Below, piece by piece: positions 7,874-21,860 of a stretch of DNA of 24,000 nucleotides (positions within the stretch are counted from its first letter, which is position 1; each line of letters opens with the position of its first letter). The DNA is from an uncultured Thermococci archaeon (GTDB lineage Archaea > Methanobacteriota_B > Thermococci > Thermococcales > Thermococcaceae), in NCBI GenBank assembly GCA_964615185.1, contig CAZTOS010000005.1:9749-33748 (forward strand), read 5' to 3'. Below the pieces are notes generated by a model. It saw only the letters and a program-made list of their open reading frames with translations. It was not told the origin of the DNA and made no database searches. Made by a program: the position numbers and the translations under genes.

Positions 7874-7932
7874 ATGACAAAAAGCTTTAATATCTTGTTA
7901 TCCGAAATTATTTTCCCGCTGGAGGTGATAGG

Positions 7933-9611: not shown

Positions 9612-9616
9612 AAGGA

Positions 9617-10576
9617 ATGAATTCCTTAGTTAAAAAAATAGATGAAAACATTTCAGCCATGATCCAAATATCTATGCTCAACTTAATCAAACTTGGATTA
9701 AAATATGGAATTTTTAACAAACTAACAATAAAACGCCACTATGCCGATATTTTAGGCTCAAGTCCAATTAGAAATAAGCCTTTATTAAAAAGCCTCCTAG
9801 ATACATATGTTGAAGTGGGAATATTAGAAAAAGGCATTAATGAAATAAAAATGAAAAACTTTTCTTACACAATGACTCTCAATAGAGGGAGTGTTCAACA
9901 TATGCTTCCCAGTTGGGTTCCAATTTTTGAGGAAATATACAAAATGGTGGATTACGCGTTTATAAGTCCAGAGCATCCGAAAATTTTAATGGATTTTGAT
10001 AAAGATGCAGATTTTTGGGATATGAGGCTCTCTCTGGAATTTAACAGTAATTATAGGAAATTGATAGTATCCATAGGAAAGCTAAAAGATGAAATGAGAG
10101 TTTTGGATCTAGGATGCGGGTCTGTCTCACCGATTGAGATAGGGAAATTTTTAGGTCCTAATGGGGAATATGTGGGTGTTGATTTCTCACCAGGTATTAT
10201 GAGCATTGCTAAACAAAGAATTCAAAATTTGGGCTTTGACTGGGTTACCTTAAAAGAAATAGACATAAGAGTAATAAAACCTAAAACTAAGTATGATGTA
10301 GTTATTATGAGTTTTATTCTGGAATATATAGATAACATTCAAAAGGTTATGAAAAATGCAATGGAAGCATTAGAAGAAAAGGGGAAGTTGATAATTGTAG
10401 AGCCTTTTAGGGAAAATTATCCAAACATCGAAGCTTGGGAATTTTTTGAAAGATTGACAAGGGAATTTGTAGAATTTCCTAAAAAATCATCTATAATAGA
10501 GAGCCTTGAGGATGATGGATACACGTATAGGATACAGGAAGTTGGAAAGTCTATTTTGATGATTGAGAAGCTGTAG
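9617..10576 (+). CDS. Class I SAM-dependent methyltransferase with an N-terminal helical (O-methyltransferase dimerisation/wHTH-like) domain
   Basis: Motif I is VLDLGCGSVSPIE, post-I is GVDFSPGIM, and motif II/III is DVVIMSFILEYI. I prefer ATG 9617 because GAGGTGA lies 5 nt upstream. The track's GTG 9608 overlaps the wHTH stop. Confidence 0.8.
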   Translation: MNSLVKKIDENISAMIQISMLNLIKLGLKYGIFNKLTIKRHYADILGSSPIRNKPLLKSLLDTYVEVGILEKGINEIKMKNFSYTMTLNRGSVQHMLPSWVPIFEEIYKMVDYAFISPEHPKILMDFDKDADFWDMRLSLEFNSNYRKLIVSIGKLKDEMRVLDLGCGSVSPIEIGKFLGPNGEYVGVDFSPGIMSIAKQRIQNLGFDWVTLKEIDIRVIKPKTKYDVVIMSFILEYIDNIQKVMKNAMEALEEKGKLIIVEPFRENYPNIEAWEFFERLTREFVEFPKKSSIIESLEDDGYTYRIQEVGKSILMIEKL

Positions 10577-10622
10577 TTCTTTTCAATTTTTTACAAATTT
10601 TTGCTTATTACTCAATTTTTTG
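10577..10622 (+). terminator. T-rich tract after the methyltransferase gene
   Basis: The sequence is ttcttttcaattttttacaaatttttgcttattactcaatttttt, which contains several T5-T6 runs directly after the stop codon. Confidence 0.45.
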
Positions 10623-10627
10623 GTAAA

Positions 10628-10661
10628 TATCTACATATGTAGATACATTCCCATATACATA
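10628..10661 (+). promoter_or_regulatory. TACATA hexamer cluster including an 18-bp perfect palindrome (candidate activator/operator site of the fla promoter)
   Basis: The palindrome TATCTACATATGTAGATA spans 10628-10645. TACATA occurs at 10632-10637 and 10656-10661, its complement TATGTA at 10636-10641, and the near-copy TACATT at 10644-10649. The cluster ends 20 nt upstream of the TATA box. Confidence 0.55.
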
Positions 10662-10670
10662 GGCAAAAAC

Positions 10671-10690
10671 AAAAAATTGCTTTATATTCA
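10671..10690 (+). promoter_or_regulatory. BRE/TATA promoter of the archaellin genes
   Basis: An A-rich BRE-like stretch, AAAAAATTGC, precedes TTTATATT (10681-10688). The RBS GGAGGTG lies at 10724-10730 and the ATG at 10739. Confidence 0.6.
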
Positions 10691-10738
10691 AAAGTACTTA
10701 TTACTTATTGCAGAATCTCCAATGGAGGTGCTCTTGGC

Positions 10739-11410
10739 ATGGGACATTTTATAAAGAAGAGGAGAGGTGCCGTTGGTATTGGCACCTTGATTGTGTTTAT
10801 AGCTATGGTTTTAGTGGCGGCAGTGGCGGCAGCAGTTCTTATTAATACGAGCGGTTACTTGCAGCAAAGAGCAGAATCTACAGGAAGGCAAACAACAAAG
10901 GAAGTAGCAACAGGATTACAAATCGACAAAGTAGTAGGGCATGTAGACCAAAACAATGGTAAGATTGATTTAATGGCATTTTATATTTCAGTTCAAGCAG
11001 GTGGAGAAGCGATAGACCTCAACCAAACAAAGATTTATTTAAGTGATGGGCAGAACGTTGTTGTTCTCCAATATGGGTATAATGGTTCAAACAACTTGTA
11101 TTACGACAGCCCATTAAGCAATGGATTGTTTGACACAAGTCTAGGTGTTTGGAAAAACCTAACATCAACAACCTTTGGTATTATAGTGGTTCAGGATGTC
11201 GATAATTCAGTTAGAGCCGATTATCCAAGCATTAACTCTGGAGATATAGTCATTTTAACAGCAAATGTCAGCGCAATCTTTGGCAATAATGGAATTTCAC
11301 CAAGAACTACAGTTACGGTTGAAGTTAGACCAGAGTTTGGAGGTCCAGGATTTACAGCATTTACAACACCACCAAGCTATGGACAGGCAGAGGTTATCGA
11401 GTTAAAGTGA
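10739..11410 (+). CDS. flaB: Archaellin (FlaB/ArlB), short paralog, 223 aa
   Basis: It has a class III (type IV pilin-like) signal peptide, [10 protein letters not shown]|[39 protein letters not shown]. It ends in the conserved C-terminus [18 protein letters not shown] and contains 4 N-x-S/T sequons. Confidence 0.95.
10766..10938 (+). repeat. 173-nt segment identical to 11433-11605 (archaellin 5' regions), copy 1
   Basis: I compared the two copies base by base and found no mismatches. The segment covers the codons from GAVGIG to DKVVG. Confidence 0.95.
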
Positions 11411-11420
11411 GGTGAGAAAA

Positions 11421-12440
11421 ATGAAGAAGCGTGGTGCCGTTGGTATTGGCACCTTGATTGTGTTTATAGCTATGGTTTTAGTGGCGGCAGTGGCGGCAGC
11501 AGTTCTTATTAATACGAGCGGTTACTTGCAGCAAAGAGCAGAATCTACAGGAAGGCAAACAACAAAGGAAGTAGCAACAGGATTACAAATCGACAAAGTA
11601 GTAGGACGCATCTCAGGAAACAAGATTGATAAAATGGGAATATACATTTCACTCCAAGCTGGTGGTGAGCCAATAGATCTGAGTCAGACGAAATTAGTGT
11701 TGAATGATCAAAAGAAGCTTGCTATATTAGAATACAAGGACTTTACAAGAGTAAAAATTTCAACGGATATGGATGGAAAAATATTCAATGCAACACTTGT
11801 AGGCACCCATCAAAATGTAACTTATGATACCTCTGCTGGTGATACAATTAGCTTAACCGTAAGCGGAACATTAAAGCAAGATTCAAATGGTAACTACGTT
11901 GGTACTCTAACAGTAACTGGTGGAAGCCTTAAAACAACTTCAGTCACCAATGCTAACTTTACAATCTCAAGTGGATACCTAAAGGTTACAGGAAACAGCT
12001 CCAATAACCTCATAATTACCTCAGGATACCTTGAAACAGATACGGGTAAAACATTGCCTGTAAAGAGCGCTAATCTTACAGGTAGTGGATTATCTCTAAG
12101 TGGTAGTGAAGTAGAGCTTTCAAGTCAAACATTAAACAATGGAACCATAACAATTGCATCCATTTGGAATGTTTTGGACAATGACAATACCCACTTTGGA
12201 TTAATAATTGTTCAGGATGTTGATGGATCACTAAGCGGTGATGTTCCAACAATAACTGCGGGAGATATAGCAATTATTGTAGTTGACACTAAAGCGGTCT
12301 TCTCAAATACCGACGGAATACCAACAAGAACAACAGTAAGTGTTGAAGTTAAGCCAGAATTCGGTGCTTCAGGATTTACAGCGTTTACAACACCACCAAG
12401 CTATGGAATTGGCAACAACCAGGTCATAGAGCTTAAGTAA
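11421..12440 (+). CDS. flaB: Archaellin (FlaB/ArlB), long paralog, 339 aa with expanded central domain
   Basis: Its signal peptide is MKKRG|[18 protein letters not shown]. The N-terminal 60 or so residues are identical to the first archaellin. The C-terminus is [19 protein letters not shown] prefer ATG 11421 with GAGGTGA upstream over the track's GTG 11412. Confidence 0.95.
11433..11605 (+). repeat. 173-nt segment identical to 10766-10938, copy 2
   Basis: Same hand comparison as for copy 1. Confidence 0.95.
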
Positions 12441-12468
12441 TCTCTTTTATTTTCATTTTTTCTCTTTT
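12441..12468 (+). terminator. T-rich tract between the archaellin genes and flaC (partial terminator/attenuator candidate)
   Basis: The sequence tctcttttattttcattttttctctttt starts immediately after the stop of the second archaellin. The flaC RBS AGAGGTGG follows it. Confidence 0.5.
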
Positions 12469-12482
12469 AAGAGGTGGCAGAG

Positions 12483-12965
12483 ATGTCATTCAAGTACTTA
12501 AAAGACAAATTCAAGAGGAGCAAGGAAAAGCAGGAGGATGTTGAAGAAGTTGTCATAGATGTTGAAGAAGTATCTCAAGAAGGTGAGGATAAGAGTGAAC
12601 TTGAAGAAAAATTAAATTCCATAATGTCCAGAATTTCTGAGATAGAAAATGACATTCCCAGGATAAAGATGGGCATAGACACTTTGAAAAGCCAAATACA
12701 GGAGATAAGGGGAGAAATTGACAGCTTGAATAAAACAATAAAAGACGTTATGATGCTCTACGAGGTAGTTTCAGAGGAGATAAATCCATTTAGAGACACA
12801 AGCAGGAACAATCCAATACTAAGTGAAATTCAGGACATCAAAAAAGCGATAGAGGATTTAAAAGCAGAAATCGCACAAATAAAAGCAGATCTAAGACTTT
12901 TATCCAGTCATGGAATGGACGTGGAGTCTGTGATATATGAAGTGCTCTCGGAGGGTTTTGAATGA
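12483..12965 (+). CDS. flaC: Archaellum accessory protein FlaC (ArlC), coiled-coil
   Basis: It holds the operon position directly after the archaellins. It has an acidic N-terminus followed by a long heptad-like region (LEEKLNSIMSRISEIENDIPRIKMGIDTLKSQIQEIRGEIDSLNKTIKDV). It overlaps flaD by 4 nt (ATGA). Confidence 0.75.
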   Translation: MSFKYLKDKFKRSKEKQEDVEEVVIDVEEVSQEGEDKSELEEKLNSIMSRISEIENDIPRIKMGIDTLKSQIQEIRGEIDSLNKTIKDVMMLYEVVSEEINPFRDTSRNNPILSEIQDIKKAIEDLKAEIAQIKADLRLLSSHGMDVESVIYEVLSEGFE

Positions 12966-13795
12966 TAACCGAGCTGGAGATAGATAATAAACTTAAAAAA
13001 CTTCAAGGGAAAGTACCTACAGTTCTAATAAATGATCTAAGAGAAAAACTAATTGCCAAAATGGACCTTCTTGAACCAGAACAAGTTGATAAGATAATTG
13101 AAAAGGTCATGGAAAAATATGCTTCACAAGTTGACAGACTAATAAAGCTGGATAAGAGAATTGAAGAAATTAGAAAACATCTCGAAGAACTTTCTAAGAA
13201 CCTTACTCAGGAAAAAAAGGAACAACAAAGTGAAAATCAAGTCACTCAAGAAGACGCAAAAGCTACAGAGAGAATCTCTAACGAATATTTACGTGCACCC
13301 GAAATCCGTTTAGATGGAGAGTATGGGGGAGATAGTGTTAATGAAAGTTTAAGGGAGGAAACACCTATGGAGGAGCAACTTAATATACCAAAAGATATTG
13401 GTTTGATGCTATTCGATAGATCATCAAGGAAGTATAGGTTGGAAAAGCTTCCTGATGATATGATTTCAACTATGATTGCACTGAAGTGGCTTGGTTTCTT
13501 AATGGAGAGAGTAGGTGTCCAAAATCTCGAGAATGTTTTGGAATACTACTACGAACTTGGGTGGATATCCGAGGAAGTTCTCAATGATCTGTTGAAGTAT
13601 GCAAAAGGAACAAAGCCTCATTATAGAGAGCCTGATTGGAAACCAGCTGATAAATTAACAATTCAAGATCATGTGATATCACTCCTATTTATTGAAAGAC
13701 TTAGGGGCACAAGAGTTAGTAGAGAAGTCCTAGACATGCTTGAGAGGGAGATGAAGCTAATAACAAAGGCAATCGAGGAATTCTATGGAGTGTAG
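12962..13795 (+). CDS. flaD: Archaellum accessory protein FlaD/E family (ArlD)
   Basis: It has an N-terminal coiled coil, an acidic low-complexity linker, and a C-terminal conserved FlaD/E-type domain (MISTMIALKWLGFLMERVGVQNLENVLEYYYELGWISEEVLNDLLKY). Confidence 0.8.
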   Translation: MITELEIDNKLKKLQGKVPTVLINDLREKLIAKMDLLEPEQVDKIIEKVMEKYASQVDRLIKLDKRIEEIRKHLEELSKNLTQEKKEQQSENQVTQEDAKATERISNEYLRAPEIRLDGEYGGDSVNESLREETPMEEQLNIPKDIGLMLFDRSSRKYRLEKLPDDMISTMIALKWLGFLMERVGVQNLENVLEYYYELGWISEEVLNDLLKYAKGTKPHYREPDWKPADKLTIQDHVISLLFIERLRGTRVSREVLDMLEREMKLITKAIEEFYGV

Positions 13796-13804
13796 GGGAT
13801 CGCA

Positions 13805-14311
13805 ATGGGTTTTAGCGTTTCAGTAGCTTTCAGTATAATAGTGATCTCTGCTTTACTTATGATCTCTCTACTTTATACTTCTTTTGAAAACACATACATT
13901 GAGATCAGTAAGGCAAAAGAAGTGCATGAAAATGCAAAAATTAACTTGCTCAACCAACGCCTTGATGTTAACTGGACTTACCGAGAAGGAACTAGTGATT
14001 ATAGCATGTATTTCAATGTAACCAACAACGGCATTACTTTAAGACCCCAGTATTGGAACATACTTTATGATGGGAGCATAAACTCAAATCATGTTTCCTT
14101 AGAATCACGCGAATACCTACTTCCCGGAGAGACCATTGAACTAAATGTGACCAATATTCCAAAAATCAACGAAATTCATTCCATAGTAATTACAACGGAA
14201 TATGGATGTTCGTTAAAGATTAAGTGGGAGTGGGTGTGGATTGATCAGAACCAGACAGTTGGAGAGGTTAATGTTCTCAGTGAAGCCTGGTACTGTACAT
14301 TGGAGGGATAA
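13805..14311 (+). CDS. flaF: FlaF (ArlF), membrane-anchored beta-rich archaellum protein
   Basis: It has an N-terminal archaellin-like hydrophobic helix (FSVSVAFSIIVISALLMISLLY) followed by a soluble beta-rich domain. Its size (168 aa) and operon position match FlaF. Confidence 0.75.
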   Translation: MGFSVSVAFSIIVISALLMISLLYTSFENTYIEISKAKEVHENAKINLLNQRLDVNWTYREGTSDYSMYFNVTNNGITLRPQYWNILYDGSINSNHVSLESREYLLPGETIELNVTNIPKINEIHSIVITTEYGCSLKIKWEWVWIDQNQTVGEVNVLSEAWYCTLEG

Positions 14312-14313
14312 AA

Positions 14314-14784
14314 TTGGGAAGTGGAGTCATTTCAGAGCTTATACTCTTCATAGCAGCAATATTAGTTGCGGGCATGGTATCTGGGGCATTATACGTAACT
14401 ACTCAAAACATTGCAGGAGAAATAGAGAACAAAGGACTCACTTTTGCACGGGATTTAAAAATAGACTTTGCTATAATCAATGATCCCGAAAACATACCTC
14501 TGGTTGATAACAACACATATTATGTTTTTTATATTAAAAACACTGGAAAAGAGAGCTTTTTGTTTAGCTCGAATAATGTTGTCGTGCTTATTGATGGTGA
14601 GATAGTTGACTCATCTAATCTCGTATTTGATAACTTAAGTAACCCAGGTCTTGAAGTTTTAAACCCTTATGAGATTGGAGAGCTTCGCGTTAATGCTACT
14701 GTTGTGGATACTTCAGTTCAATATCACAAAATCACGATTATAGTAGAAAATGGAAAGAAAAGAAGCTTAGTATTTAAAGTTTAA
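14314..14784 (+). CDS. flaG: FlaG (ArlG), membrane-anchored archaellum protein
   Basis: It has a TTG start with GGAGGG 6 nt upstream. Its N-terminal helix is SELILFIAAILVAGMVSGALYV. Its size (156 aa) and its position after flaF match FlaG. Confidence 0.75.
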   Translation: MGSGVISELILFIAAILVAGMVSGALYVTTQNIAGEIENKGLTFARDLKIDFAIINDPENIPLVDNNTYYVFYIKNTGKESFLFSSNNVVVLIDGEIVDSSNLVFDNLSNPGLEVLNPYEIGELRVNATVVDTSVQYHKITIIVENGKKRSLVFKV

Positions 14785-14795
14785 AGGTGTTAGAA

Positions 14796-15491
14796 ATGGG
14801 AGAGTTGTTAAGTATAGCAATAAAAAACGATGAGCTTCATAGGAGATTAGGCGGAGGTATTCCAGCCGGAAGTATAGTGTTAATAGAGGGAGATAGAGGG
14901 AGTGGAAAATCTGTATTTTCTCAAAGACTTCTCTATGGATTCCTGTCCAATGGTCACTCTGTTTCTTATTTATCAAGCCAATACACAACTGTCGAGTTTA
15001 TAAATCAAATGTATTCCTTGGGTTATGAAATTATACCTTTTCTTATAAGAAGAAAGCTCTTATTTGTGTCATTCTATCCGCTTTTATCGACTCTTTCTAG
15101 TGAAGAGAAGTTTTTAAGCAGACTTATTAATGAGCCGAGAGTATGGGAACCTGATGTTATAATAATAGACTCCATAACTCCCATAATTGGGAAAAAGGTT
15201 AGCGATTCTGCGTTAAGAATGTTCACTGAACATGTGAAAAAAATGAGTTCATTAGGAAAGGTTACTACGCTAACAGTCAACGAAAAAGAAATGGACGAAG
15301 ACCTTCTTTTAAAACTTGAAGAAATATCTACTCTGCTTATAAGACTTCAAGTTAAGGTATTTGGTGGAGATCTAAAAAATTCTGCTATGATTATAAAATA
15401 TAACAACGCTAAGGGCTTATTCCAGAGAATAATACCATTTAGAGTAGAACCGAGAGTAGGGTTCATAGTAGAGATAGCAACGGTGGTGTGA
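14796..15491 (+). CDS. flaH: FlaH (ArlH), RecA/KaiC-like ATP-binding protein
   Basis: It contains LGGGIPAGSIVLIEGDRGSGKS (Walker A) and the Walker B-like DVIIIDS. I prefer ATG 14796 because AAAGGTG lies 6 nt upstream; the track uses GTG 14787. Confidence 0.87.
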   Translation: MGELLSIAIKNDELHRRLGGGIPAGSIVLIEGDRGSGKSVFSQRLLYGFLSNGHSVSYLSSQYTTVEFINQMYSLGYEIIPFLIRRKLLFVSFYPLLSTLSSEEKFLSRLINEPRVWEPDVIIIDSITPIIGKKVSDSALRMFTEHVKKMSSLGKVTTLTVNEKEMDEDLLLKLEEISTLLIRLQVKVFGGDLKNSAMIIKYNNAKGLFQRIIPFRVEPRVGFIVEIATVV

Positions 15492-15492
15492 G

Positions 15493-17118
15493 ATGGCTGA
15501 GTTTAATGATACCTTAGAAGCAGCAATATACAGAAACCCACATCTTAGAAAATACATTAATAATTTCACCAAAAAATATGGAAAACTTCCAAACTTCCAC
15601 GTGAGCCTAAGTAGAGATATGAAAGATATCAAGTATCCAAATATTATCTATCCTATAGGTGACCCCATATTTATCCATATATATGGTGATCCGAGGACTG
15701 AGAAAAGGTATATTGTTATAGAACCGAGAATAGAGACAAAGGAAGAAGAAAAGAAGTATGAGCTTATAAAAGACAAGATATTAGAGATGGCTCCATTAAG
15801 AGAAATTCCGGAAGATCCTGAGGAATTTGAAGCTTTATTAGATGAGCTATTCAACATTGCTGTTGAAAAATTAGTTTCTGGTGGAGGCTTTATAAGAAGG
15901 AGGAAAATTTCATTCACAAAACAGGAACTCGACAAATTCCGCTATCTAATAAAAAGAGATGTCATTGGTGTAGGACCCCTAGAACCTTTAGTAAGAGATC
16001 CATACATAGAAGATATCCACGTTTTAGGTGCTCACCATATATCTTTAGTTCACAAGATTTTTGACGCATTACCAACCAATATTGCCTTTGAGAACGAGAT
16101 AAAATTAGCAGACTACTTTAAAAGCCTAAGCGAACGTATAGGTAGACCGGTCAGTGATAAAAACCCAATAGTAGATGGTACATTGCCAGATGGATCGCGT
16201 ATAAACATCATTTATAGCCCAGATGTTAGTTTAAAGGGACCAACAGCCACAATTCGTAAGTTCTCCGCAACTCCATTAAGCGTAGTACAGCTTGTAAACT
16301 GGAATACTTTTTCTGCTGAAATTGCAGCATACTTATGGATTGCTTTGGAGTATGGTATGAGTATTTTTGTTTGTGGAGAAACTGCAAGTGGAAAAACAAC
16401 GACATTAAACTCTATAATACCATTTATCAAGCCCTCCTCAAAAATATATACTGCCGAAGATACTCCCGAGGTTGTTGTTCCACATCCCAACTGGCAACGT
16501 TTAGTTACAAGAGAAAGAGGACCAGAGGAAAGCAGAGTGACTCTTTTCGACTTGTTAAAGGCGGCTTTGAGATCAAGACCTAATTATATTATAGTTGGTG
16601 AGATTAGAGGTGTAGAAGGTGCTGTGGCATTTCAAGCAATGCAAACTGGACACCCAGTTCTAAGTACTTTCCACGCAGGAGATATAAAGAAGATGATACA
16701 AAGATTTACAGGGAGCCCAATTAACGTCCCTGTTACATTCATAGATAACTTAAATATTGCTATTTTCCAACAGGCTGTTTATGTAAGAGGAAAGTTCCTT
16801 AGAAGAGTTGTCAATGTTGTTGAAATTGAAGGATACTATGAAGAGATTGGTGGAGTCGCTACAAGGGACGTATTTGAGTGGGACCCAGTAAGTGATAGAC
16901 ACATCTTTAGAGGTATGAACAATTCGTATATTTTAGAAAGGAAAATAGCAGAGGTCGCAGGTTACGATGACCCCAAGGATATATACAATGAATTATTCTT
17001 AAGAGCTAGAATAATCAAGAGAATGAGTGAATTGGGAATTACAAGCTACTGGGATGTTTATCGTGAGATAAAGAACTTTTATGAGAAGGGGATTGAGGGA
17101 TTAAGCTTTAGGATATGA
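15493..17118 (+). CDS. flaI: FlaI (ArlI), archaellum assembly/motor ATPase (type II/IV secretion ATPase superfamily)
   Basis: It has Walker A GETASGKTT, the Asp/Walker B region PNYIIVGEIRG and His box STFHAG. It is 541 aa and starts 1 nt after the flaH stop. Confidence 0.96.
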   Translation: MAEFNDTLEAAIYRNPHLRKYINNFTKKYGKLPNFHVSLSRDMKDIKYPNIIYPIGDPIFIHIYGDPRTEKRYIVIEPRIETKEEEKKYELIKDKILEMAPLREIPEDPEEFEALLDELFNIAVEKLVSGGGFIRRRKISFTKQELDKFRYLIKRDVIGVGPLEPLVRDPYIEDIHVLGAHHISLVHKIFDALPTNIAFENEIKLADYFKSLSERIGRPVSDKNPIVDGTLPDGSRINIIYSPDVSLKGPTATIRKFSATPLSVVQLVNWNTFSAEIAAYLWIALEYGMSIFVCGETASGKTTTLNSIIPFIKPSSKIYTAEDTPEVVVPHPNWQRLVTRERGPEESRVTLFDLLKAALRSRPNYIIVGEIRGVEGAVAFQAMQTGHPVLSTFHAGDIKKMIQRFTGSPINVPVTFIDNLNIAIFQQAVYVRGKFLRRVVNVVEIEGYYEEIGGVATRDVFEWDPVSDRHIFRGMNNSYILERKIAEVAGYDDPKDIYNELFLRARIIKRMSELGITSYWDVYREIKNFYEKGIEGLSFRI

Positions 17119-17127
17119 GGTGAGCTT

Positions 17128-18834
17128 ATGGCAAGCAGTAATACCAGTGCTTTCACAAAAGCAGACCTTGATGTGAGGACATATTTAAGGAAGGTTATAT
17201 TGCCCAATGCATCACTTGCAATGTTGATGTTCGTTCTAACATCAATCTTTCTTAGAATGTACACTCTCCCTTCATGGGCAAAAGTTAGTGTTTATGCTAT
17301 CTCCACCCTTCCACTTATTTATGCTGTTCTCTATCCCTACGTAAGAGTTAGTTCCAAAAAAGTTCAAATTAATTCAAAAATACCCTACTTTGCCACTTAT
17401 TTCGCTGTACTATCAACAAGTGATGTAAGCAGAACAGAACTTATATGGAACATTGCGTCCGAAGAAACTCTTGAACCTATAGCAGGAGAGATGAGGAAAA
17501 TTTACGTTCTTATAGCAAAGTTCAATTGCGGATTGCCAACTGCTCTCCGTTTCTTATCAAAGAGAAGTCCAAGCAAAGTTTTTGCAGATTTCCTCGATAG
17601 ACTAGCTTATTCTCTTGATAGTGGTGTAGAGCTTAAAGAGTACCTCCTGCGGGAGCAACAAACAGTTATGGACGATTATGAGACATTTTATGAAGGAGCT
17701 CTTTATGACCTTGATATATTTAAGGAAATATACTCCTCACTCATTATTGCAGTAGTTTTCATGGTTGCATTCATTATTATAGGTCCCATAATCACTGGAC
17801 AGAGTATAGAGATCTTAACAATCTTTGCTTTGATTTTGGTGTTAGCTACTGAAATTGGTGTTCTGTTGGTGATAAAATATAGGATGCCTGAAGACAAAAT
17901 ATGGGCTAAAAATGCAATGAATAATGGAAGAAAGAGAAAAGTGTTAAGGGCATTGTTGATTTCTATAATTGGGACTATCTTTACATCAGTTGTTTATATA
18001 TTTGTTGTGAGACCAAGATTCAACTTTCCAGAATTCTTTTCTTTAGCTGTAATCTTAACGCCTTTAGCCTATTTTGGGAGAGTATTAAACAAGGAAGAAG
18101 CCAACATAACTATTAAAGATGAAAACTTCCCTGCATTTATAAGAAGCTTAAGCACTTCTTTAGCATCAAGTGGGAGTTCTGTAACATTAGTTCTTAAGTA
18201 TCTAAGCTCTCATGACTTTGGAACCCTTACAACGGATATACGAAACCTATATCGTAGGTTAGCTGTTAGAGTGAATGATACAAGAGCATGGGATTATTTT
18301 ATCTCAGATACTGGAAGTTGGTTGATTAGCATGTTTTCAGAAATATTCAGGAAGAGCATAAGATTAGGTGCTGATCCGGAATACGTTGGATTGATTATCT
18401 CGAGAAATTTTGAAAGGCTTATAAGACTTAGAAGAAAGAGAGTGCAAAGTGTATCGAGCTTTAAGGGTGTTATCTTTGGAGTAACGGGAGCATTTGCATT
18501 TTCATTAGCAGCGTCTTTTCAAGTTGTTCTATATATAAATAAAGTATTCTCAAACATACAGACTCAAGGAGGATTCGTAACAAATATACTCTTCATACCC
18601 TCTGAAACAAGCCTTACCCTTACTAATTACATGATACTTTTGATGATCTTAATCCACTCCTTTGTATCTGCTATTGCAATAAAGTTTTCAGATGGAGGAC
18701 ATCTTGGAGCAGCGATTTACTATTTTGTAATGCTAACATGGGTGTCTGCAATTGGAGTATTCTTGGGGAACTATATAATGACCAAGATGATACATGTAGG
18801 TGGGCTTATCTTTCCACTCATATGGGGGGGTTAG
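17128..18834 (+). CDS. flaJ: FlaJ (ArlJ), polytopic membrane platform protein
   Basis: It is 568 aa with multiple hydrophobic helices separated by two cytoplasmic helical domains (T2SS-F-like duplication). GAGGTGA lies upstream, and it sits directly after flaI. Confidence 0.9.
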   Translation: MASSNTSAFTKADLDVRTYLRKVILPNASLAMLMFVLTSIFLRMYTLPSWAKVSVYAISTLPLIYAVLYPYVRVSSKKVQINSKIPYFATYFAVLSTSDVSRTELIWNIASEETLEPIAGEMRKIYVLIAKFNCGLPTALRFLSKRSPSKVFADFLDRLAYSLDSGVELKEYLLREQQTVMDDYETFYEGALYDLDIFKEIYSSLIIAVVFMVAFIIIGPIITGQSIEILTIFALILVLATEIGVLLVIKYRMPEDKIWAKNAMNNGRKRKVLRALLISIIGTIFTSVVYIFVVRPRFNFPEFFSLAVILTPLAYFGRVLNKEEANITIKDENFPAFIRSLSTSLASSGSSVTLVLKYLSSHDFGTLTTDIRNLYRRLAVRVNDTRAWDYFISDTGSWLISMFSEIFRKSIRLGADPEYVGLIISRNFERLIRLRRKRVQSVSSFKGVIFGVTGAFAFSLAASFQVVLYINKVFSNIQTQGGFVTNILFIPSETSLTLTNYMILLMILIHSFVSAIAIKFSDGGHLGAAIYYFVMLTWVSAIGVFLGNYIMTKMIHVGGLIFPLIWGG

Positions 18835-18835
18835 C

Positions 18836-20779
18836 ATGAGAAAGATTTGGATAATATTTGTTTTAATCTTGATATCACAAGGAGTGTATGCGGAATCGGA
18901 GATATCAGGATGGATATTAGTCCCAAGTGTTGTTAAAGTAGGAAGTTATTCAATAGAAGCTAAGGACATTTCAGTTACTGATTGGGATGTGCTCACAATA
19001 ATTAGAGGCCCTAAATTGTATAAGGAGTACCTAATTTCAGTTGGGAGTGAGGTTCAGGCAGACAGGTTTTATATAACATATAAAAATGTGATAGCGGGAG
19101 AACAGATATATGCTCTAACTAAAATAAAATTTCCATATCTTCTTGAGGGTCAGTCAATAAGTATTAACGGATATCAAATATTGCTTCGCTCTGTCAGCAA
19201 AGATAAAGTCCTTCTCAGGATATACAACGAAAAAGAGAGTAAAGACTTGACAGTGAGGAAGGGTTCAACCGAAAAGTTTGGAAATCTTAGGATCTCTGCA
19301 ATACCCGAACCTACAATTTTTGATGGCTTTCTTGCCAAAAACAAAACATACATAATTGGAGATTGGAAAATAAGATTTCTCACATATAAGATAACAGAGA
19401 ACAATGGCAACATAACAGAAGAAGCTGAGATTGAGATAAATAATGTACGTTTTAAAGTTACAAAAAATCAGACTGTAACTTTTAGAGATGGATATTTAGT
19501 AGTTGACGATCTTATAGGCGAGGAGTATATAAAGGCTCGCTTAATAATTAAGGGAGCATATTTGAACATAAAAGTATTTCCAGATTATCAATTTTCTTTG
19601 AAGGAAGGCAAGATAGCGAGAGTAGGGCCGTATTTGATTAAAGTTGAAAAAATATTTGGGGACAGTGTTTATTTATCGTTGCTTAACCCATGTGGAAAAG
19701 TCATTAAAAGTGATGTCCTTTCCCTGAAAAATGTTGGGGCAAGTTTATATTACAATGGCTTAACTCTTGGGATTTTAAATATTACTAAAGAAACCAGTGT
19801 AGAGATGGTGGCATTTTTAGATGATAAACGAATTCCAAAGATAGAAGAGTATGCATTGCTGAATGTTACTTTTTTAGTTCCAGAGAATGTTAATCAATAT
19901 CAGCAGTTTGGTGGGTATATCGAGTTAAAGAATGAAGGAAAAGTTGATCTAAAGTTTCTCCAGATAATACCCTCTATCCCGCAGGAATTTGAAATCGTGG
20001 ATAAATATACAAGCTTTGTTGAAGAACTTAAAGTTGGAAAAAGCGTGAAAATACCCATAAGGCTAAAAGCGCTAAAAGAAGGTTCTCTCTATGCAGGCCA
20101 GGTAAAAGTAATCGCTTATGCTCCATTTGAGCTTGCTTGCAATGGTTTTCAAAAGCTTGAGTTTACATCTAACAAAGCTTGGATTAAGGTTGAGGGATAC
20201 AAGCCAAAGTATGCTGTTATAATTAAAGCCCAAGATGGTGAAGTAGGAGAAAGAATAAAGGTCAATGTTACTGTTAAAAACTTTTCAAACTTTGAAGCTC
20301 CTTTCATGCTAAGAATTGCAGTACCAAGAGAGTTTGGTATTTACAGTGAAGATTTTATGAGTGTAAATAAGAATTGGTTATATATCAATGAAACTTTGCC
20401 TGTAAATGGTACAAAGACTTACAAGTTTGTTATTTTTCCAAATAAGCCAGGAAAGTTCACAATCGAAGGTTCTTTAAGCTCAATGGGTATGTTCTTCCAA
20501 AACAGTACAATCTTTACAGTATATAGCAAAAAGCCTGCTAATTCACAATCTAATTCACAATTAAAGCCACTCTTAAATACCACAAATAACACAACCTGTG
20601 AGCCCCAAATAATAGAGAAAACAGAAACCATCAAGGTACCACAAATCGTTGAGCAAAATGTTACCTTTGTTCCACTAAAGTCAAAGGTTTTATTTGGAGG
20701 GACAGGATTTATCGGAGGTGTTACATTCATACTTTTATTAGCATACATAGCGGCAAAGCTTGAAGAAAGGAAGAAATAG
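18836..20779 (+). CDS. Uncharacterised 647-aa surface-anchored protein with many N-glycosylation sequons, encoded as the last gene of the archaellum operon
   Basis: Its ATG lies 1 nt after the flaJ TAG. It has a signal peptide (MRKIWIIFVLILISQGVYA|ESE), a beta-rich body, and two CARDB/DUF11-like segments (GGYIELKNEGKVDLKFLQI..., ERIKVNVTVKNFSNFEAPFMLRI...). An S/N/T-rich stalk follows, then a C-terminal TM helix (LFGGTGFIGGVTFILLLAYIAA) with a KLEERKK tail. It contains at least 13 N-x-S/T sequons. Confidence 0.85.
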   Translation: MRKIWIIFVLILISQGVYAESEISGWILVPSVVKVGSYSIEAKDISVTDWDVLTIIRGPKLYKEYLISVGSEVQADRFYITYKNVIAGEQIYALTKIKFPYLLEGQSISINGYQILLRSVSKDKVLLRIYNEKESKDLTVRKGSTEKFGNLRISAIPEPTIFDGFLAKNKTYIIGDWKIRFLTYKITENNGNITEEAEIEINNVRFKVTKNQTVTFRDGYLVVDDLIGEEYIKARLIIKGAYLNIKVFPDYQFSLKEGKIARVGPYLIKVEKIFGDSVYLSLLNPCGKVIKSDVLSLKNVGASLYYNGLTLGILNITKETSVEMVAFLDDKRIPKIEEYALLNVTFLVPENVNQYQQFGGYIELKNEGKVDLKFLQIIPSIPQEFEIVDKYTSFVEELKVGKSVKIPIRLKALKEGSLYAGQVKVIAYAPFELACNGFQKLEFTSNKAWIKVEGYKPKYAVIIKAQDGEVGERIKVNVTVKNFSNFEAPFMLRIAVPREFGIYSEDFMSVNKNWLYINETLPVNGTKTYKFVIFPNKPGKFTIEGSLSSMGMFFQNSTIFTVYSKKPANSQSNSQLKPLLNTTNNTTCEPQIIEKTETIKVPQIVEQNVTFVPLKSKVLFGGTGFIGGVTFILLLAYIAAKLEERKK

Positions 20780-20816
20780 AATTAATGAAAAGACAAAAAA
20801 GTTAAAAAGTTCCCTT

Positions 20817-20860
20817 CATAATAATTCCATTGAAAAGCTTCTAAAAGGGGAATTATTATG
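20817..20860 (+). promoter_or_regulatory. 12-bp perfect inverted repeat CATAATAATTCC-N20-GGAATTATTATG whose 3' arm covers the start codon of the CheF-like gene
   Basis: The arms span 20817-20828 and 20849-20860. The ATG is at 20858-20860, and the G-rich RBS-like AAGGGG is partly inside the arm. Confidence 0.35.
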
Positions 20861-21859
20861 GCAATTATGGAATTGAGAGCTAAAGCAACCGTAATAAGCT
20901 CGTGGACGACGAGTACGCCAAAATGGAAAGATGTTTTGGTGGAATTAGATGAAACAGGCATTATTTTGAAATATCTAAAAAGGGGAGAGATAGTAAAGAA
21001 AGAGAGGTATCGTTTTGTTAACTTAGCTGATGTAGGTATGAGAATACCAGATAATGTAAAATTAGACCCAACAAAGGATCATTTTGGATTAAGATTCTAT
21101 GGTGGAAAAAGAGGGGATTTGTACGTTATTTTGACTTTGGGGGAGAATCCCCTAATTTTCGATGAAAAGAAGTTTGAAAGCTTTATAGACACTGTTTTTA
21201 TGATTCTTCTTAACAAACAACGAGTAATGATTCAGTTTGCTAGAATTAAAGGTGGAGCTATTAACATGAAGTCTGAATGGACTGAAGGAGAGATAAGGAT
21301 TCTCTCCACGAGAGGTACAAAAGACGCAGCTATAGTTCAAGGAAAAAACGTTATCTCCCTCTTCTATGATTTGGAAGATGTTGAAGTGGAAGAGAAGGAA
21401 TTTGAAAACAAGAAAATAAACGCCCTAAAATTAAAGCACCTACATAGAAATGAAAGTGTAACTTCATATGTTTATATTCCGAATAGGAAAGTAGGTTTAT
21501 TTTTAGTGAGATATCTCCTAAACTATAATCCAAAATCAAAAGAAATTATGGAAAAAATAGCGAGTGAGTTTGAAGAAATACAGCATGAAATAGAGGAAGA
21601 AATCAAAAGGGAATTAAAGGAGCTTGAACGTTTGAGTCCTGAAGAACAGCAGATACTTTTAGCATTATACTCCGGAATACATCCTTTAGAGCTTCACCAG
21701 TTCCTTGGGATAAGTGAAGAAGAAATTGAGAGAATATATGATGAAATGATAGACAAAGGACTTCTTAAAATAGTTATGATAAGGAAAATTGTTGATTTAA
21801 CAATGGATGGGAGAAAAATAGTAAATAAATTAATAAAATATGGAAAAGTCAGCATGTAA
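20858..21859 (+). CDS. cheF: CheF-like (DUF439) archaellum-chemotaxis adaptor with C-terminal HTH-like extension
   Basis: Its position between the fla operon and cheW/mcp fits CheF. Segments such as FIDTVFMILLNKQRVMIQFARIKGGAI and VGLFLVRYLLNYN resemble haloarchaeal CheF as I remember it. The C-terminus EEQQILLALYSGIHPLELHQFLGISEEEIERIYDEMIDKGLL looks like an HTH. This call rests on memory, not on a search. Confidence 0.6.
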   Translation: MAIMELRAKATVISSWTTSTPKWKDVLVELDETGIILKYLKRGEIVKKERYRFVNLADVGMRIPDNVKLDPTKDHFGLRFYGGKRGDLYVILTLGENPLIFDEKKFESFIDTVFMILLNKQRVMIQFARIKGGAINMKSEWTEGEIRILSTRGTKDAAIVQGKNVISLFYDLEDVEVEEKEFENKKINALKLKHLHRNESVTSYVYIPNRKVGLFLVRYLLNYNPKSKEIMEKIASEFEEIQHEIEEEIKRELKELERLSPEEQQILLALYSGIHPLELHQFLGISEEEIERIYDEMIDKGLLKIVMIRKIVDLTMDGRKIVNKLIKYGKVSM

Positions 21860-21860
21860 A

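What the first reader, a model, noticed from the sequence alone, without database searches (positions are those of the whole stretch)
18836..20779. Orphan 647-aa surface-anchored protein with many N-glycosylation sequons, fused into the archaellum operon directly after flaJ
The canonical euryarchaeal archaellum gene set ends with flaJ. Here a further large gene starts 1 nt after the flaJ stop, on the same strand and with no promoter-like spacer. The product has all the hallmarks of an extracellular, membrane-tethered protein. It has a cleavable signal peptide, and its N-terminal half (about 340 aa) carries recurring beta-strand motifs (YSIEAKDISVTDWDVLTII / YQILLRSVSKDKVLLRIY / YLIKVEKIFGDSVYLSLL). 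These are followed by two CARDB/DUF11-like Ig-fold-looking modules and an S/N/T-rich stalk (KKPANSQSNSQLKPLLNTTNNTT). It ends in a single C-terminal TM helix with a short basic tail, and it carries at least 13 N-glycosylation sequons. None of the named Fla/Arl components matches this architecture. Possible roles are a pseudo-periplasmic or S-layer-spanning collar or stator anchor, an adhesin deployed together with archaella, or a cell-pole surface marker. The gene is also among the most AT-rich stretches in the window.
Basis: partly seen in the sequence, partly recalled or inferred. Interest (0 to 1): 0.72.

Follow-up and report, generated by a model that had tools for sequence, protein, structure and literature searches.

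The report
Conserved surface glycoprotein gene after arlJ
The gene is real, but it is not an orphan: it belongs to a fast-evolving, uncharacterised family of membrane-anchored surface glycoproteins (PF0329/TK0050) that sits directly after the archaellum platform gene flaJ/arlJ in almost all Thermococci, which makes it a good untested candidate for an extra, outward-facing part of the archaeal swimming machine.

Summary
It starts 1 nt after the flaJ stop. It has a Sec-type signal peptide, an all-beta ectodomain, an S/T/N-rich stalk, one C-terminal TM helix and 14 N-glycosylation sequons (chance expectation 4.2).

"Orphan" is wrong. A profile search finds about 20 sequence clusters of 610-672 aa relatives, including P. 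furiosus PF0329 and T. kodakarensis TK0050. The homolog starts between 4 nt inside flaJ and 8 nt past its stop, behind a conserved Shine-Dalgarno-like run, in 10/10 genome or long-contig loci and 22/25 informative metagenome loci, whatever lies further downstream. The nearest non-Thermococci flaJ locus lacks it.

TK0050 is down-regulated together with the fla genes. P. furiosus transcriptomics found no internal start sites in the cluster.

Architecture:
- four ~75-aa beta repeats (AF2 pLDDT 93.6; no PDB, viral, Pfam or PDB-sequence match)
- two CARDB/DUF11-type Ig modules
- a stalk
- an unusually conserved GxxxG TM helix

It is the fastest-evolving gene of the operon, close to the S-layer-binding FlaF.

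Best reading (about 0.5): a Thermococci-specific pseudo-periplasmic accessory of the archaellum. Caveats: one lineage has lost it, a plasmid paralog follows a conjugation-type ATPase, and no functional data exist.

The parts
17128..18834 (+). flaJ/arlJ, the archaellum membrane platform and the gene immediately upstream.
   Evidence: NCBIfam ArlJ/FlaJ equivalog NF004704, 686.7 bits against a cutoff of 550. Pfam T2SSF.
18823..18829 (+). G-rich Shine-Dalgarno-like run (GGGGGGT) inside the 3' end of flaJ, 6 nt upstream of the ATG.
   Evidence: Sequence read. The equivalent GGGGGTGAT or GGAGGTGAT lies 3-12 nt before the start in all 21 loci inspected. A TATA-like element within 100 nt upstream occurs in only 2 of 21.
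18836..20779 (+). PostJ ORF, 647 aa: ortholog of P. furiosus PF0329 and T. kodakarensis TK0050.
   Evidence: Family HMM matches to PF0329 (E 6e-55), TK0050 (5e-74), P. ferrophilus (2e-110) and Thermococcus SY098 (4e-189). Identities of PF0329 and TK0050 confirmed.
18836..18892 (+). Sec-type signal peptide, aa 1-19 (MRKIWIIFVLILISQGVYA|E).
   Evidence: Positively charged n-region, hydrophobic core (KD 3.6) and a small-residue c-region. Present in all 24 family members. Low pLDDT for aa 1-18.
18899..19786 (+). N-terminal all-beta domain of four tandem ~75-aa repeats (about aa 22-99, 101-161, 162-249, 250-317). The fold is unassigned.
   Evidence: AF2 with a 22-sequence alignment: pLDDT 93.6, pTM 0.87, 32 strands. 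hhalign self-matches at 98% and 97% probability. No PDB or BFVD fold match (best TM below 0.2). No Pfam or PDB sequence match.
19853..20200 (+). First Ig-like beta-sandwich module (about aa 340-455). It contains the conserved PYELACxG motif.
   Evidence: AF2 strands at aa 342-429. Out-of-family profile hits cover positions 335-511. C435 is nearly invariant.
20207..20530 (+). Second Ig-like module, CARDB/DUF11 (BatD) type (about aa 458-565).
   Evidence: Pfam PF13584 covers aa 469-544, E 3e-6, above the gathering score. CARDB hits 13 of 24 relatives. Profile hit to the solved CARDB domain 2kl6/3idu, E 7e-5, profile positions 457-554.
20531..20689 (+). Disordered S/T/N/P/Q-rich stalk (aa 566-618) carrying 4 sequons and the juxtamembrane PLKSK motif.
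   Evidence: pLDDT below 50 for aa 567-625. 51% S/T/N/P/Q, and a similar stalk is present in 24 of 24 relatives.
20690..20779 (+). C-terminal TM helix (about aa 619-642; G-x-G-x-x-x-G ... LLLAYIAAK) plus a 5-aa charged tail and the stop codon.
   Evidence: Hydropathy windows at aa 617-643. AF2 helix at aa 623-644. This is the most conserved block of the family, 0.56 against 0.42 overall.
9285..17118 (+). The rest of the motility cluster upstream: earA (9285-9611), methyltransferase (9608-10576), two archaellins (10739-12440), flaC, flaD, flaF (13805-14311), flaG (14314-14784), flaH and flaI.
   Evidence: ORFs. Pfam EarA and methyltransferase hits. The same gene order is annotated in P. pacificus locus L001.
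20858..21859 (+). cheF, the next gene downstream after a 78-nt spacer. It is followed by convergent cheW and an MCP gene.
   Evidence: Pfam CheF-arch 8.8e-16 and CheW 1.4e-39. MCPsignal.

Best explanation
The ORF encodes the Palaeococcus-type member of a Thermococci-specific family (PF0329/TK0050, here called PostJ). It is the terminal gene of the archaellum (fla/arl) operon and is translationally coupled to flaJ/arlJ.

**Shown by sequence and models:** it is a type-I membrane glycoprotein. After signal-peptide cleavage, an ectodomain of six beta modules (four family-specific repeats plus two CARDB-type Ig domains) sits on a glycosylated ~50-residue stalk in the pseudo-periplasm. A conserved GxxxG transmembrane helix holds it in the membrane, and almost nothing reaches the cytoplasm.

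**Inferred function:** an extracytoplasmic structural accessory of the archaellum machine. It would be made in step with ArlJ. Its TM helix would dock at the motor base, to ArlJ or to the ArlF/ArlG membrane anchors. Its ectodomain would reach towards the S-layer, to scaffold or brace the motor or to keep open the S-layer passage that the filament needs.

**Status of the steps:** topology, glycosylation potential, operon membership and lineage-wide linkage are shown or strongly supported. The physical association with the motor, and the scaffold or collar role, are inference.
For: **Synteny**
- A family member starts between 4 nt inside flaJ and 8 nt past its stop in 10/10 genome or long-contig loci and 22/25 informative metagenome loci.
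- Downstream neighbours differ from locus to locus (cheF, amidohydrolase, pcm, PAPS-reductase-like, MFS, others). The linkage is therefore to flaJ.

**Coupling to flaJ**
- An ATGA/GTGA overlap is present in 6 of the 8 loci checked at nucleotide level; the coordinates point to the same overlap in most metagenome loci.
- A G-rich Shine-Dalgarno-like run precedes the start in 21/21 loci.
- A TATA-like element lies within 100 nt upstream in only 2/21.

**Phyletic range**
- The family is present in a deep Thermococci MAG whose FlaJ is 50% identical.
- It is absent after flaJ in the nearest outgroup locus, whose FlaJ is 39% identical.

**Expression**
- TK0050 falls 6.5- and 5.4-fold together with TK0047-49 (5.9- to 8.1-fold) in a T. 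kodakarensis histone mutant (PMC8155482).
- dRNA-seq and long-read data for P. furiosus show no enriched internal 5' ends in the arl cluster, which that paper lists as ending in "a hypothetical gene" (PMC10665913).

**Extracytoplasmic location**
- Signal peptide, a single C-terminal TM and a sequon density equal to that of the archaellins, FlaF and FlaG.

**Evolutionary rate**
- Identity to six other Thermococci is 25-56%.
- That is the lowest in the operon and closest to the S-layer-binding FlaF (30-65%). FlaI is 77-85%.

**Conserved TM**
- The TM helix and the juxtamembrane motif are the best-conserved block of the protein, which argues for a specific partner in the membrane.

**Unassigned densities**
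- Cryo-ET of P. furiosus left membrane-proximal periplasmic densities unassigned. How the filament gets through the tight S-layer is also unexplained (PMC5517150).
Against: - There is no functional, localisation or interaction evidence for any family member. The reviews checked do not list such a component.
- RT-PCR in P. furiosus never found flaJ and PF0329 on a co-transcript, and the authors excluded PF0329 from the operon (PMC4263178). That assay also failed to link flaJ to flaI, so its negative result is weak.
- Three related metagenomic Thermococcus loci have flaJ followed directly by pcm, with flaF-flaJ otherwise intact. Their relative T. aciditolerans has flaJ-PostJ-pcm.
- The ortholog is split into two ORFs in Thermococcus sp. 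JCM 11816. The protein is therefore not universally required.
- A full-length distant paralog is not at a fla locus.
- Ig/CARDB strings are generic surface modules.
Confidence: 0.5

Rival explanations
1. It is an adhesin or contact protein co-expressed with archaella. The Ig/CARDB ectodomain binds surfaces or other cells. It is placed in the fla operon only so that it is made when cells deploy archaella, which in Pyrococcus also mediate adhesion and cell-cell contacts. It is not part of the motor.
For: - CARDB-type Ig modules are typical of cell-surface and adhesion proteins.
- It evolves faster than any other gene in the operon.
- It has been lost or disrupted in some lineages, as expected for an accessory trait.
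- The plasmid paralog next to a conjugation-type ATPase could serve mating-pair contact.
- P. furiosus archaella are known to be multifunctional adhesive organelles (abstract of PMC4263178).
Against: - The protein is tethered to the cytoplasmic membrane beneath an S-layer that lies about 34 nm away in P. furiosus. Whether the ectodomain can project beyond the S-layer is doubtful and was not tested.
- The strongly conserved TM and juxtamembrane block is not expected for a simple anchor.
- The strict 4-nt overlap with flaJ across the class suggests stoichiometric co-production with the platform protein.
Confidence: 0.22
2. It is a generic envelope accessory for machines that cross the cell envelope. 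PostJ-like proteins would help any filament-forming or DNA-transfer apparatus traverse the pseudo-periplasm and S-layer. The chromosomal copy serves the archaellum and the plasmid copy serves a conjugation-like system.
For: - P0126 (890 aa) aligns with the family over 520 columns (hhalign probability 100%, E 1e-43).
- It lies 13 nt after a DUF87/AAA_10 ATPase on the 103-kb circular plasmid THER333_p of T. nautili 33-3.
- That ATPase is 37-38% identical over 88% of its length to the DUF87 ATPase of Sulfolobus plasmids such as NC_006493 (pNOB8, a conjugative plasmid from my own knowledge). Most of its 535 plasmid matches (369) are to plasmids typed as conjugative.
Against: - There is only one such paralog, and the plasmid itself is typed non-mobilizable.
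- The paralog has a long acidic cytoplasmic tail and lacks the family's TM motif, so it may have diverged in function.
- This reading overlaps with the best explanation rather than excluding it.
Confidence: 0.15
3. It is an unrelated surface or S-layer-associated glycoprotein that merely rides on fla operon transcription, with no functional tie to motility.
For: - RT-PCR gave no co-transcript with flaJ.
- One lineage has lost the gene and kept an intact fla operon.
- There is no similarity to any Arl protein.
Against: - Adjacency and overlap with flaJ are preserved across Palaeococcus, Pyrococcus, Thermococcus and a deep Thermococci lineage, while every other neighbour changes. Neutral hitch-hiking would not be expected to survive that much rearrangement.
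- TK0050 is co-regulated with the fla genes.
Confidence: 0.1
4. It is a secreted or surface enzyme, such as a protease, glycosidase or transglutaminase.
For: There are weak Pfam hits to Transglut_C and to A2M-type domains in some relatives. Full-length Foldseek hits include sialidases and transglutaminase 3.
Against: - Those hits are to the non-catalytic Ig-like accessory domains only, with TM 0.12-0.2.
- No catalytic domain was found by Pfam, NCBIfam, PHROGs or PDB profile search.
- No candidate catalytic residue set is evident among the invariant or near-invariant columns, which are mostly Gly, Pro, Asn, Ser and two Cys.
Confidence: 0.03

Closest known systems
PF0329 (P. furiosus, AAL80453.1 / PFDSM3638_01600) and TK0050 (T. 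kodakarensis, BAD84239.1), annotated as hypothetical or conserved hypothetical membrane proteins
   Same: They are full-length homologs (HMM E 6e-55 and 5e-74). They occupy the same position directly after flaJ and share the same architecture of signal peptide, beta ectodomain, stalk and C-terminal TM.
   Different: Pairwise identity to the window protein is only 27-28%. The tails differ: PF0329 has an 18-aa Arg-rich tail. Neither protein has been characterised. PF0329 was judged to be outside the operon by RT-PCR.
ArlF/ArlG (FlaF/FlaG), the pseudo-periplasmic stator proteins of the archaellum
   Same: [quoted passage not shown] They have the same high sequon density and similarly fast divergence. 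The role proposed here is also in the pseudo-periplasm.
   Different: No sequence or fold similarity was found. The Foldseek PDB search gave no significant match of any kind, and I did not check that ArlF/ArlG structures are in that library. PostJ is about four times larger. From my own knowledge of the family, ArlF/G carry an archaellin-like N-terminal hydrophobic helix, whereas PostJ has a cleavable Sec signal and a C-terminal TM.
Archaeal S-layer glycoproteins such as Haloferax volcanii csg (comparison from my own knowledge of that protein)
   Same: Same overall plan: signal peptide, a string of about six beta-sandwich modules, an S/T-rich glycosylated stalk and a C-terminal membrane anchor.
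   Different: There is no detectable homology to S-layer domains in Pfam, PDB sequence or fold searches. The only hint is DUF1608 (3u2g) at probability 0.25 and TM 0.11. No PGF-CTERM-type signal was found. It is the last gene of a low-abundance accessory operon, not a highly expressed lattice protein.
CARDB-domain surface proteins of Thermococcales (PF1109, PDB 2kl6/3idu; VARTIG arCOG07710 proteins)
   Same: The second Ig module matches the CARDB/DUF11 models and the solved PF1109 CARDB domain.
   Different: Those proteins are not at fla loci, and arCOG07710 lies in hypervariable islands. The four-repeat N-terminal domain and the TM motif are specific to the PostJ family.
WP_285519993.1, a hypothetical protein on plasmid THER333_p of Thermococcus nautili 33-3
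   Same: It is homologous across the repeats and both Ig modules, including the PY(E/Q)LAC(x)G motif. It is also encoded directly after a component of an ATPase-driven membrane machine.
   Different: It is 890 aa, with insertions in the N-terminal region and a long acidic cytoplasmic tail of about 150 aa. It lies next to a DUF87/VirB4-like ATPase, not flaJ, and is on a plasmid.

Membership tests
PostJ family (PF0329/TK0050-type conserved hypothetical membrane proteins of Thermococci) | Full-length sequence homology over about 640 aa. | tested here: met
   The profile search finds 20 proteins at E<=1e-30, nearly all of them full-length (610-672 aa). The HMM matches PF0329, TK0050, P. ferrophilus, SY098 and the deep MAG at E 1e-47 to 1e-189.
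PostJ family (PF0329/TK0050-type conserved hypothetical membrane proteins of Thermococci) | The gene lies immediately downstream of flaJ/arlJ on the same strand, overlapping it or within a few nt. | tested here: met
   The window has a 1-nt spacer. Other loci range from a 4-nt overlap to an 8-nt gap.
PostJ family (PF0329/TK0050-type conserved hypothetical membrane proteins of Thermococci) | N-terminal signal peptide, a single C-terminal TM with a G-x-x-x-G ... LAW/LAY motif, and a short tail. | tested here: met
   Present in the window protein and in 24 of 24 aligned members.
CARDB / DUF11-like Ig domain (Pfam PF07705, PF13584) | A match to the Pfam model above its gathering score. | tested here: met
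   PF13584 BatD covers aa 469-544 at 28.2 bits against a cutoff of 24.1. CARDB hits 13 of 24 relatives, best E 2e-9. The PDB CARDB domain 2kl6 matches at E 7e-5.
CARDB / DUF11-like Ig domain (Pfam PF07705, PF13584) | The first Ig-like module (aa ~340-455) is also of this type. | tested here: inconclusive
   AF2 shows a beta-sandwich-like strand pattern, and out-of-family profile hits span positions 335-511. The window protein itself has no Pfam hit there above threshold.
Canonical archaellum components (ArlA/B, C, D/E, F, G, H, I, J, X) | A match to a Pfam or NCBIfam model of any Arl/Fla family. | tested here: not met
   No such hit was found at E<=1, whereas the neighbouring FlaJ scores 686.7 bits in the same search.
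Canonical archaellum components (ArlA/B, C, D/E, F, G, H, I, J, X) | Required for archaellum assembly or rotation, and physically part of the machine. | not testable with these tools
   This needs deletion, localisation and interaction experiments. None was found in the literature searches.
Archaeal S-layer glycoproteins | Homology to known S-layer domains (S_layer_N/C, DUF1608, csg-type). | tested here: not met
   The N-terminal domain has no Pfam hit. The PDB profile search gives nothing. Foldseek gives only 3u2g (DUF1608) at E 4e-3, probability 0.25 and TM 0.11.
Archaeal S-layer glycoproteins | Signal peptide, glycosylated beta-rich ectodomain, S/T-rich stalk and C-terminal membrane anchor. 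| tested here: met
   This is an architectural resemblance only.
Archaeosortase/exosortase substrates (PGF-CTERM and related sorting signals) | A match to a C-terminal sorting-signal model. | tested here: not met
   The NCBIfam scan at E<=1 returned no sorting-signal model. The conserved PLKxK + TM + basic tail has a similar three-part layout but is not a known signal.
Surface enzymes (protease, glycosidase, transglutaminase) | A recognisable catalytic domain. | tested here: not met
   Only Ig-like accessory-domain hits were found. Pfam, NCBIfam and PHROGs give nothing else.

The most novel reading that the evidence does not exclude
PostJ proteins would be a previously unrecognised class of envelope-passage components in Thermococci. 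They would be S-layer-glycoprotein-like, membrane-anchored molecules with a new four-repeat beta domain. They would dock by their conserved TM helix to the base of a trans-envelope machine and form the brace or collar that lets a rotating archaellum, or in the plasmid paralog a conjugation-type apparatus, cross the pseudo-periplasm and the tight S-layer. This would account for the unassigned periplasmic densities and the unexplained S-layer passage seen in P. furiosus and T. kodakarensis tomograms.
Probability: 0.15. Interest if true: 0.8.

Novelty: new variant of a known kind. Interest (0 to 1): 0.55.

Why it matters
Two questions about the archaellum remain open: how it is braced against the cell envelope, and how an ~11 nm filament passes an S-layer whose gaps are at most ~3.5 nm. 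The two main cryo-ET models, P. furiosus and T. kodakarensis, both carry this gene.

The gene is conserved, extracytoplasmic, translationally coupled to arlJ and never characterised. It is therefore a concrete candidate that can be tested by genetics, because deletion systems exist for both organisms. If it is part of the machine, the "complete" euryarchaeal arl gene set is incomplete for a whole class.

Its N-terminal domain also appears to be a confidently predicted fold with no solved relative. Its plasmid paralog hints at a wider role with other machines that span the envelope.

If deletion has no phenotype, the gene is simply a lineage-specific surface glycoprotein and the finding is ordinary.

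Tried and rejected
**Searches that misled or failed**
- The word-indexed homology search returned only 4 relatives, both with the single protein and with the 24-sequence profile. On its own that would have suggested an orphan. The exhaustive profile search and direct inspection of flaJ neighbourhoods overturned it.
- The search for related loci failed with the divergent family alignment because it had no conserved stretch. I surveyed metagenomes through FlaJ instead.

**Fold searches**
- The full-length model matched only generic multi-Ig proteins (integrin legs, complement MG domains, ciliary proteins) at TM up to 0.22.
- The high-confidence N-domain model matched nothing. The best hits had E about 1e-3 and TM below 0.2, and were mostly beta-propellers and class-II-fusion-like glycoproteins.
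- I do not read these as fold assignments.

**Families rejected**
- S-layer domains, PGF-CTERM-type sorting signals, phage proteins and enzyme domains gave no hits.

**Internal promoter inside flaJ**
- A TATATAA lies 64 nt upstream in the window, and an ATTATAA lies 59 nt upstream in P. pacificus.
- Nothing comparable exists in the other 19 loci. I treat it as AT-rich background.

**AT-richness as a sign of foreign origin**
- Rejected. The gene matches its neighbours.

**Literature**
- Searches for TK0050, PF0329, PFDSM3638_01600 and recent archaellum motor work found no functional study.
- The Briegel 2017 T. kodakarensis tomography paper is not held.


Full report

Yes. The window carries a Thermococcales-type motility cluster on the + strand:
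- earA (9285-9611)
- a SAM methyltransferase (9608-10576)
- two archaellins (10739-12440)
- flaC, flaD, flaF, flaG, flaH, flaI
- flaJ (17128-18834)

These are followed by the ORF in question (18836-20779), then cheF (20858-21859) and convergent cheW and MCP genes.

The flaJ stop TAG ends at 18834. One base follows, then ATG at 18836, with a G-run (GGGGGGT) 6 nt upstream.

The 647-aa product has these features:
- A classical Sec signal peptide (MRK-IWIIFVLILIS-QGVYA|E).
- No internal hydrophobic segment.
- One C-terminal TM (aa ~619-642) and a 5-residue tail.
- 14 N-x-S/T sequons, against 4.2 +/- 1.9 in 2000 shuffles, none of which reached 14.
- A sequon density of 2.16 per 100 aa. The window's archaellins, FlaF and FlaG have 1.9-2.4, and its cytoplasmic proteins have 0-0.55.

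It is not a property of this gene.

**2. It is not an orphan**

The fast word-indexed search gave only four relatives. An exhaustive profile search of 1.84 billion cluster representatives found 36 hits. Twenty of them score E<=1e-30, and nearly all of these are full-length proteins of 610-672 aa.

I then looked at what follows flaJ in reference genomes:
- P. furiosus: 654 aa
- T. kodakarensis: 664 aa
- P. ferrophilus: 658 aa
- Thermococcus sp. SY098: 645 aa
- P. pacificus: 652 aa
- T. aciditolerans: 644 aa
- the JdFR-02 MAG, whose product is 83% identical to the window protein
- a second Thermococcus MAG: 648 aa
- a deep-branching Thermococci MAG: 629 aa

Each has a gene of this size directly after flaJ. 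Eight of these nine products match the family HMMs, from E 1e-47 to E 0; the T. aciditolerans product was not scored, and rests on size, position and a weak CARDB hit. Exact look-up identifies the P. furiosus and T. kodakarensis proteins as PF0329 (AAL80453.1) and TK0050 (BAD84239.1), annotated as hypothetical or conserved hypothetical membrane proteins.

A metagenome survey seeded with FlaJ returned 28 loci. Twenty-five have sequence downstream of flaJ, and 22 of those carry a family member starting within a few nucleotides of the flaJ stop.

The genes further downstream differ from locus to locus: cheF, amidohydrolase, pcm, a PAPS-reductase-like gene, an MFS transporter and others. The conserved linkage is therefore to flaJ itself.

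In the closest non-Thermococci flaJ locus recovered (FlaJ 39% identical), flaJ is followed by a convergent tRNA-guanine transglycosylase gene and no homolog. I refer to the family as PostJ.

**3. Operon membership**

At nucleotide level, six of eight loci have a 4-nt ATGA/GTGA overlap with flaJ. The window has +1 and P. furiosus has +5. The metagenome loci show the same pattern.

All 21 junctions inspected carry GGGGGTGAT, GGAGGTGAT or a similar G-run 3-12 nt before the start. From my own knowledge, this is complementary to the 3' end of Thermococcales 16S rRNA. Only two loci (the window and P. pacificus) have a TATA-like hexamer within 100 nt upstream.

The published data point both ways:
- Näther-Schindler et al. 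2014 never obtained a flaJ-PF0329 RT-PCR product and excluded PF0329 from the operon. They also obtained no product linking flaJ to flaI (PMC4263178).
- The 2023 EarA study lists the P. furiosus cluster as ending in "arlJ and a hypothetical gene". It found no enriched primary 5' ends inside the cluster and concluded that all transcripts probably originate at arlB0 (PMC10665913).
- In T. kodakarensis, TK0050 falls 6.5- and 5.4-fold in a histone mutant. It sits in the same table as TK0047-TK0049, which fall 5.9- to 8.1-fold (PMC8155482).

I conclude that co-transcription and translational coupling with flaJ are very likely but have not been demonstrated directly.

**4. Anatomy**

The full-length AF2 model was built from 4 sequences (pLDDT 76). 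It is all-beta from residue 20 to 565, disordered from 567 to 622, and ends in a helix at 623-644.

*N-terminal domain.* Re-modelling residues 20-338 with 22 family sequences gave pLDDT 93.6 and pTM 0.87, with 32 strands. A profile self-comparison shows that this region is four tandem repeats of about 75 residues:
- 82-263 against 7-217: probability 98%, E 2.6e-13
- 143-298 against 4-166: probability 97%

The domain has no counterpart that I could find:
- Foldseek against the PDB: best E 1e-3, TM below 0.2, mostly beta-propellers and elongated viral glycoproteins.
- Foldseek against BFVD: the same picture.
- Pfam scanned on all 22 members: nothing better than E 0.012.
- A PDB sequence-profile search: nothing.

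*C-terminal half.* This half contains two Ig-like modules. The second is a bona fide CARDB/DUF11-type domain:
- Pfam BatD is above its gathering score in the window protein.
- CARDB hits 13 of 24 relatives.
- A profile hit to the solved P. furiosus CARDB domain 2kl6/3idu has E 7e-5.

The full-length model hits only generic multi-Ig proteins at TM up to 0.22. No catalytic domain was found anywhere.

*Family-wide features*:
- Every member has the signal peptide, the S/T/N/P/Q-rich stalk, the single TM and a very short tail.
- The best-conserved block of the whole protein is the juxtamembrane and TM segment, P-L-K-x-K ... G-x-G-x-x-x-G-x-x-x-I-I-L-L-A-W-(Y/I)-x-A-(R/K). Its majority-residue frequency is 0.56 against 0.42 overall.
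- Two cysteines are nearly invariant: NxCG in repeat 4 and PYELACxG in Ig1.

**5. Evolutionary behaviour**

Compared with six other Thermococci, PostJ is 56, 36, 30, 27, 28 and 25% identical. This is the lowest in the operon. It is closest to FlaF (65-30%) and well below FlaJ (67-50%), FlaH (75-62%) and FlaI (85-77%). This fits a surface-exposed protein that tracks a variable partner such as the S-layer, or one under diversifying selection.

The gene is not indispensable everywhere:
- Three related metagenomic loci (L029, L032, L034) have flaJ followed 9-41 nt later by pcm, with intact-length ORFs from flaF to flaJ upstream in the one checked (L029). Their relative T. aciditolerans has flaJ-PostJ-pcm. 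This looks like a clean deletion.
- In Thermococcus sp. JCM 11816 the ortholog is split into two ORFs.

**6. A paralog elsewhere**

The most distant full-length relative is P0126 (890 aa). hhalign against the family gives probability 100% and E 1e-43 over 520 columns spanning the repeats and both Ig modules.

It is encoded on the 103-kb circular plasmid THER333_p of Thermococcus nautili 33-3, 13 nt after a DUF87/AAA_10 ATPase. That ATPase is 37-38% identical over 88% of its length to the DUF87 ATPase of Sulfolobus plasmids such as NC_006493 (pNOB8, which I know as a conjugative plasmid). It also matches 369 plasmids typed as conjugative.

This is the only family member found away from flaJ. 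It again follows a core component of an ATPase-driven membrane machine.

**7. Most likely mechanism**

*Shown or strongly supported:* a Sec-exported, N-glycosylated type-I membrane protein, made from the end of the arl operon in step with ArlJ, and confined to the pseudo-periplasm or cell surface.

*Inferred (confidence about 0.5):* it is a Thermococci-specific extracytoplasmic accessory of the archaellum. Its conserved TM helix docks at the motor base. Its six-module ectodomain, on a flexible glycosylated stalk, reaches towards the S-layer to scaffold or brace the motor or to maintain the passage for the filament.

This would fit two gaps noted for P. furiosus (PMC5517150):
- Membrane-proximal periplasmic densities are unassigned.
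- The S-layer gaps are at most 3.5 nm for an 11 nm filament, with no known mechanism for opening them.

*Rivals:*
- An adhesin merely co-expressed with archaella (0.22).
- A generic accessory of trans-envelope machines (0.15, overlapping with the main model).
- An unrelated hitch-hiking surface protein (0.10).
- An enzyme (0.03).

**8. Comparison with what is known, and novelty**

The window gene is a new member of the PF0329/TK0050 family. That family's existence after arlJ in P. furiosus has been mentioned twice in the literature. I found no study of its conservation, architecture or function, and the archaellum reviews and the T4P census I checked do not list it.

It fails the membership tests for every named Arl family, for S-layer domains, for PGF-CTERM-type substrates and for enzymes. 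It passes for CARDB/DUF11 in its second Ig module.

In overall plan it resembles archaeal S-layer glycoproteins, and in location it resembles ArlF/ArlG. It is homologous to neither.

I rate it as a new variant of a known kind: an archaellum gene cluster with an extra, conserved, uncharacterised extracytoplasmic component. Interest is 0.55. It is a concrete and genetically tractable candidate in the two organisms used for archaellar cryo-ET. There are no functional data, some lineages have lost it, and its existence has already been noticed.

Noticed in passing
L042 8001-10673 (= NZ_OX281346.1 14818-17490); neighbouring ATPase at L042 5855-7987: A distant full-length paralog of the family (890 aa, with a long acidic cytoplasmic tail) lies on the 103-kb plasmid THER333_p of Thermococcus nautili 33-3. 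It starts 13 nt after a DUF87/AAA_10 ATPase that is 37-38% identical to the DUF87 ATPase of Sulfolobus plasmids such as NC_006493 (pNOB8).
   Followed up: partly
L029 5719-5729, L032 about 5593-5635, L034 about 5700-5722; compare L044 6728-8709: Three related metagenomic Thermococcus loci have flaJ followed directly by pcm, with no PostJ gene. In the one checked (L029), the ORFs from flaF to flaJ upstream have intact lengths. T. aciditolerans has flaJ-PostJ-pcm, so this looks like a clean lineage-specific deletion.
   Followed up: partly
Cluster of TK0050: WP_054840169.1 and WP_054840168.1 of Thermococcus sp. JCM 11816/KS-1: The TK0050 ortholog appears split into two ORFs of 363 and 285 aa in this strain. 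This could be a frameshift, a pseudogene or a sequencing error.
   Followed up: no
window 20672-20779 (aa 613-647): The juxtamembrane PLKxK motif and the GxGxxxG...LLAW(Y/I)xA(R/K) TM helix form the most conserved block of an otherwise fast-evolving protein. The three-part layout (motif, TM, basic tail) recalls sortase-type signals, but no known model matches it.
   Followed up: partly
window 19691-19693 (C286) and 20138-20140 (C435): Two nearly invariant cysteines lie in the conserved NxCG (repeat 4) and PYELACxG (Ig1) motifs. They might form an inter-domain disulfide.
   Followed up: no
window 18773-18779: A TATATAA element lies 64 nt upstream of the ATG, inside flaJ. A similar element exists only in P. 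pacificus among the 21 loci inspected, so it is probably AT-rich background rather than a conserved internal promoter.
   Followed up: yes
window 9500-21900 compared with 1-9183: The whole motility cluster (earA to cheF) is 32-39% GC, while the adjacent housekeeping region (tRNA synthetases, helicase, tRNAs) is 42-46% GC.
   Followed up: no
window 7933-9183; L003 7998-9251: An amidohydrolase gene lies just upstream of earA in the window, but directly downstream of PostJ in the MAG locus L003, which has no che genes there. This shows rearrangement around a fla-PostJ block that stays constant.
   Followed up: no
window 2370-3073: An overlapping minimal nucleotidyltransferase (108 aa) and HEPN (126 aa) gene pair, which looks like a toxin-antitoxin module, lies between a class I (Trp/Tyr-type) tRNA synthetase gene and tRNA genes.
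   Followed up: no
window 9285-10576: earA overlaps the start of a 322-aa SAM methyltransferase. This is the EarA-methyltransferase pair reported in the literature to be linked throughout Euryarchaeota, here placed directly upstream of the archaellin genes.
   Followed up: no
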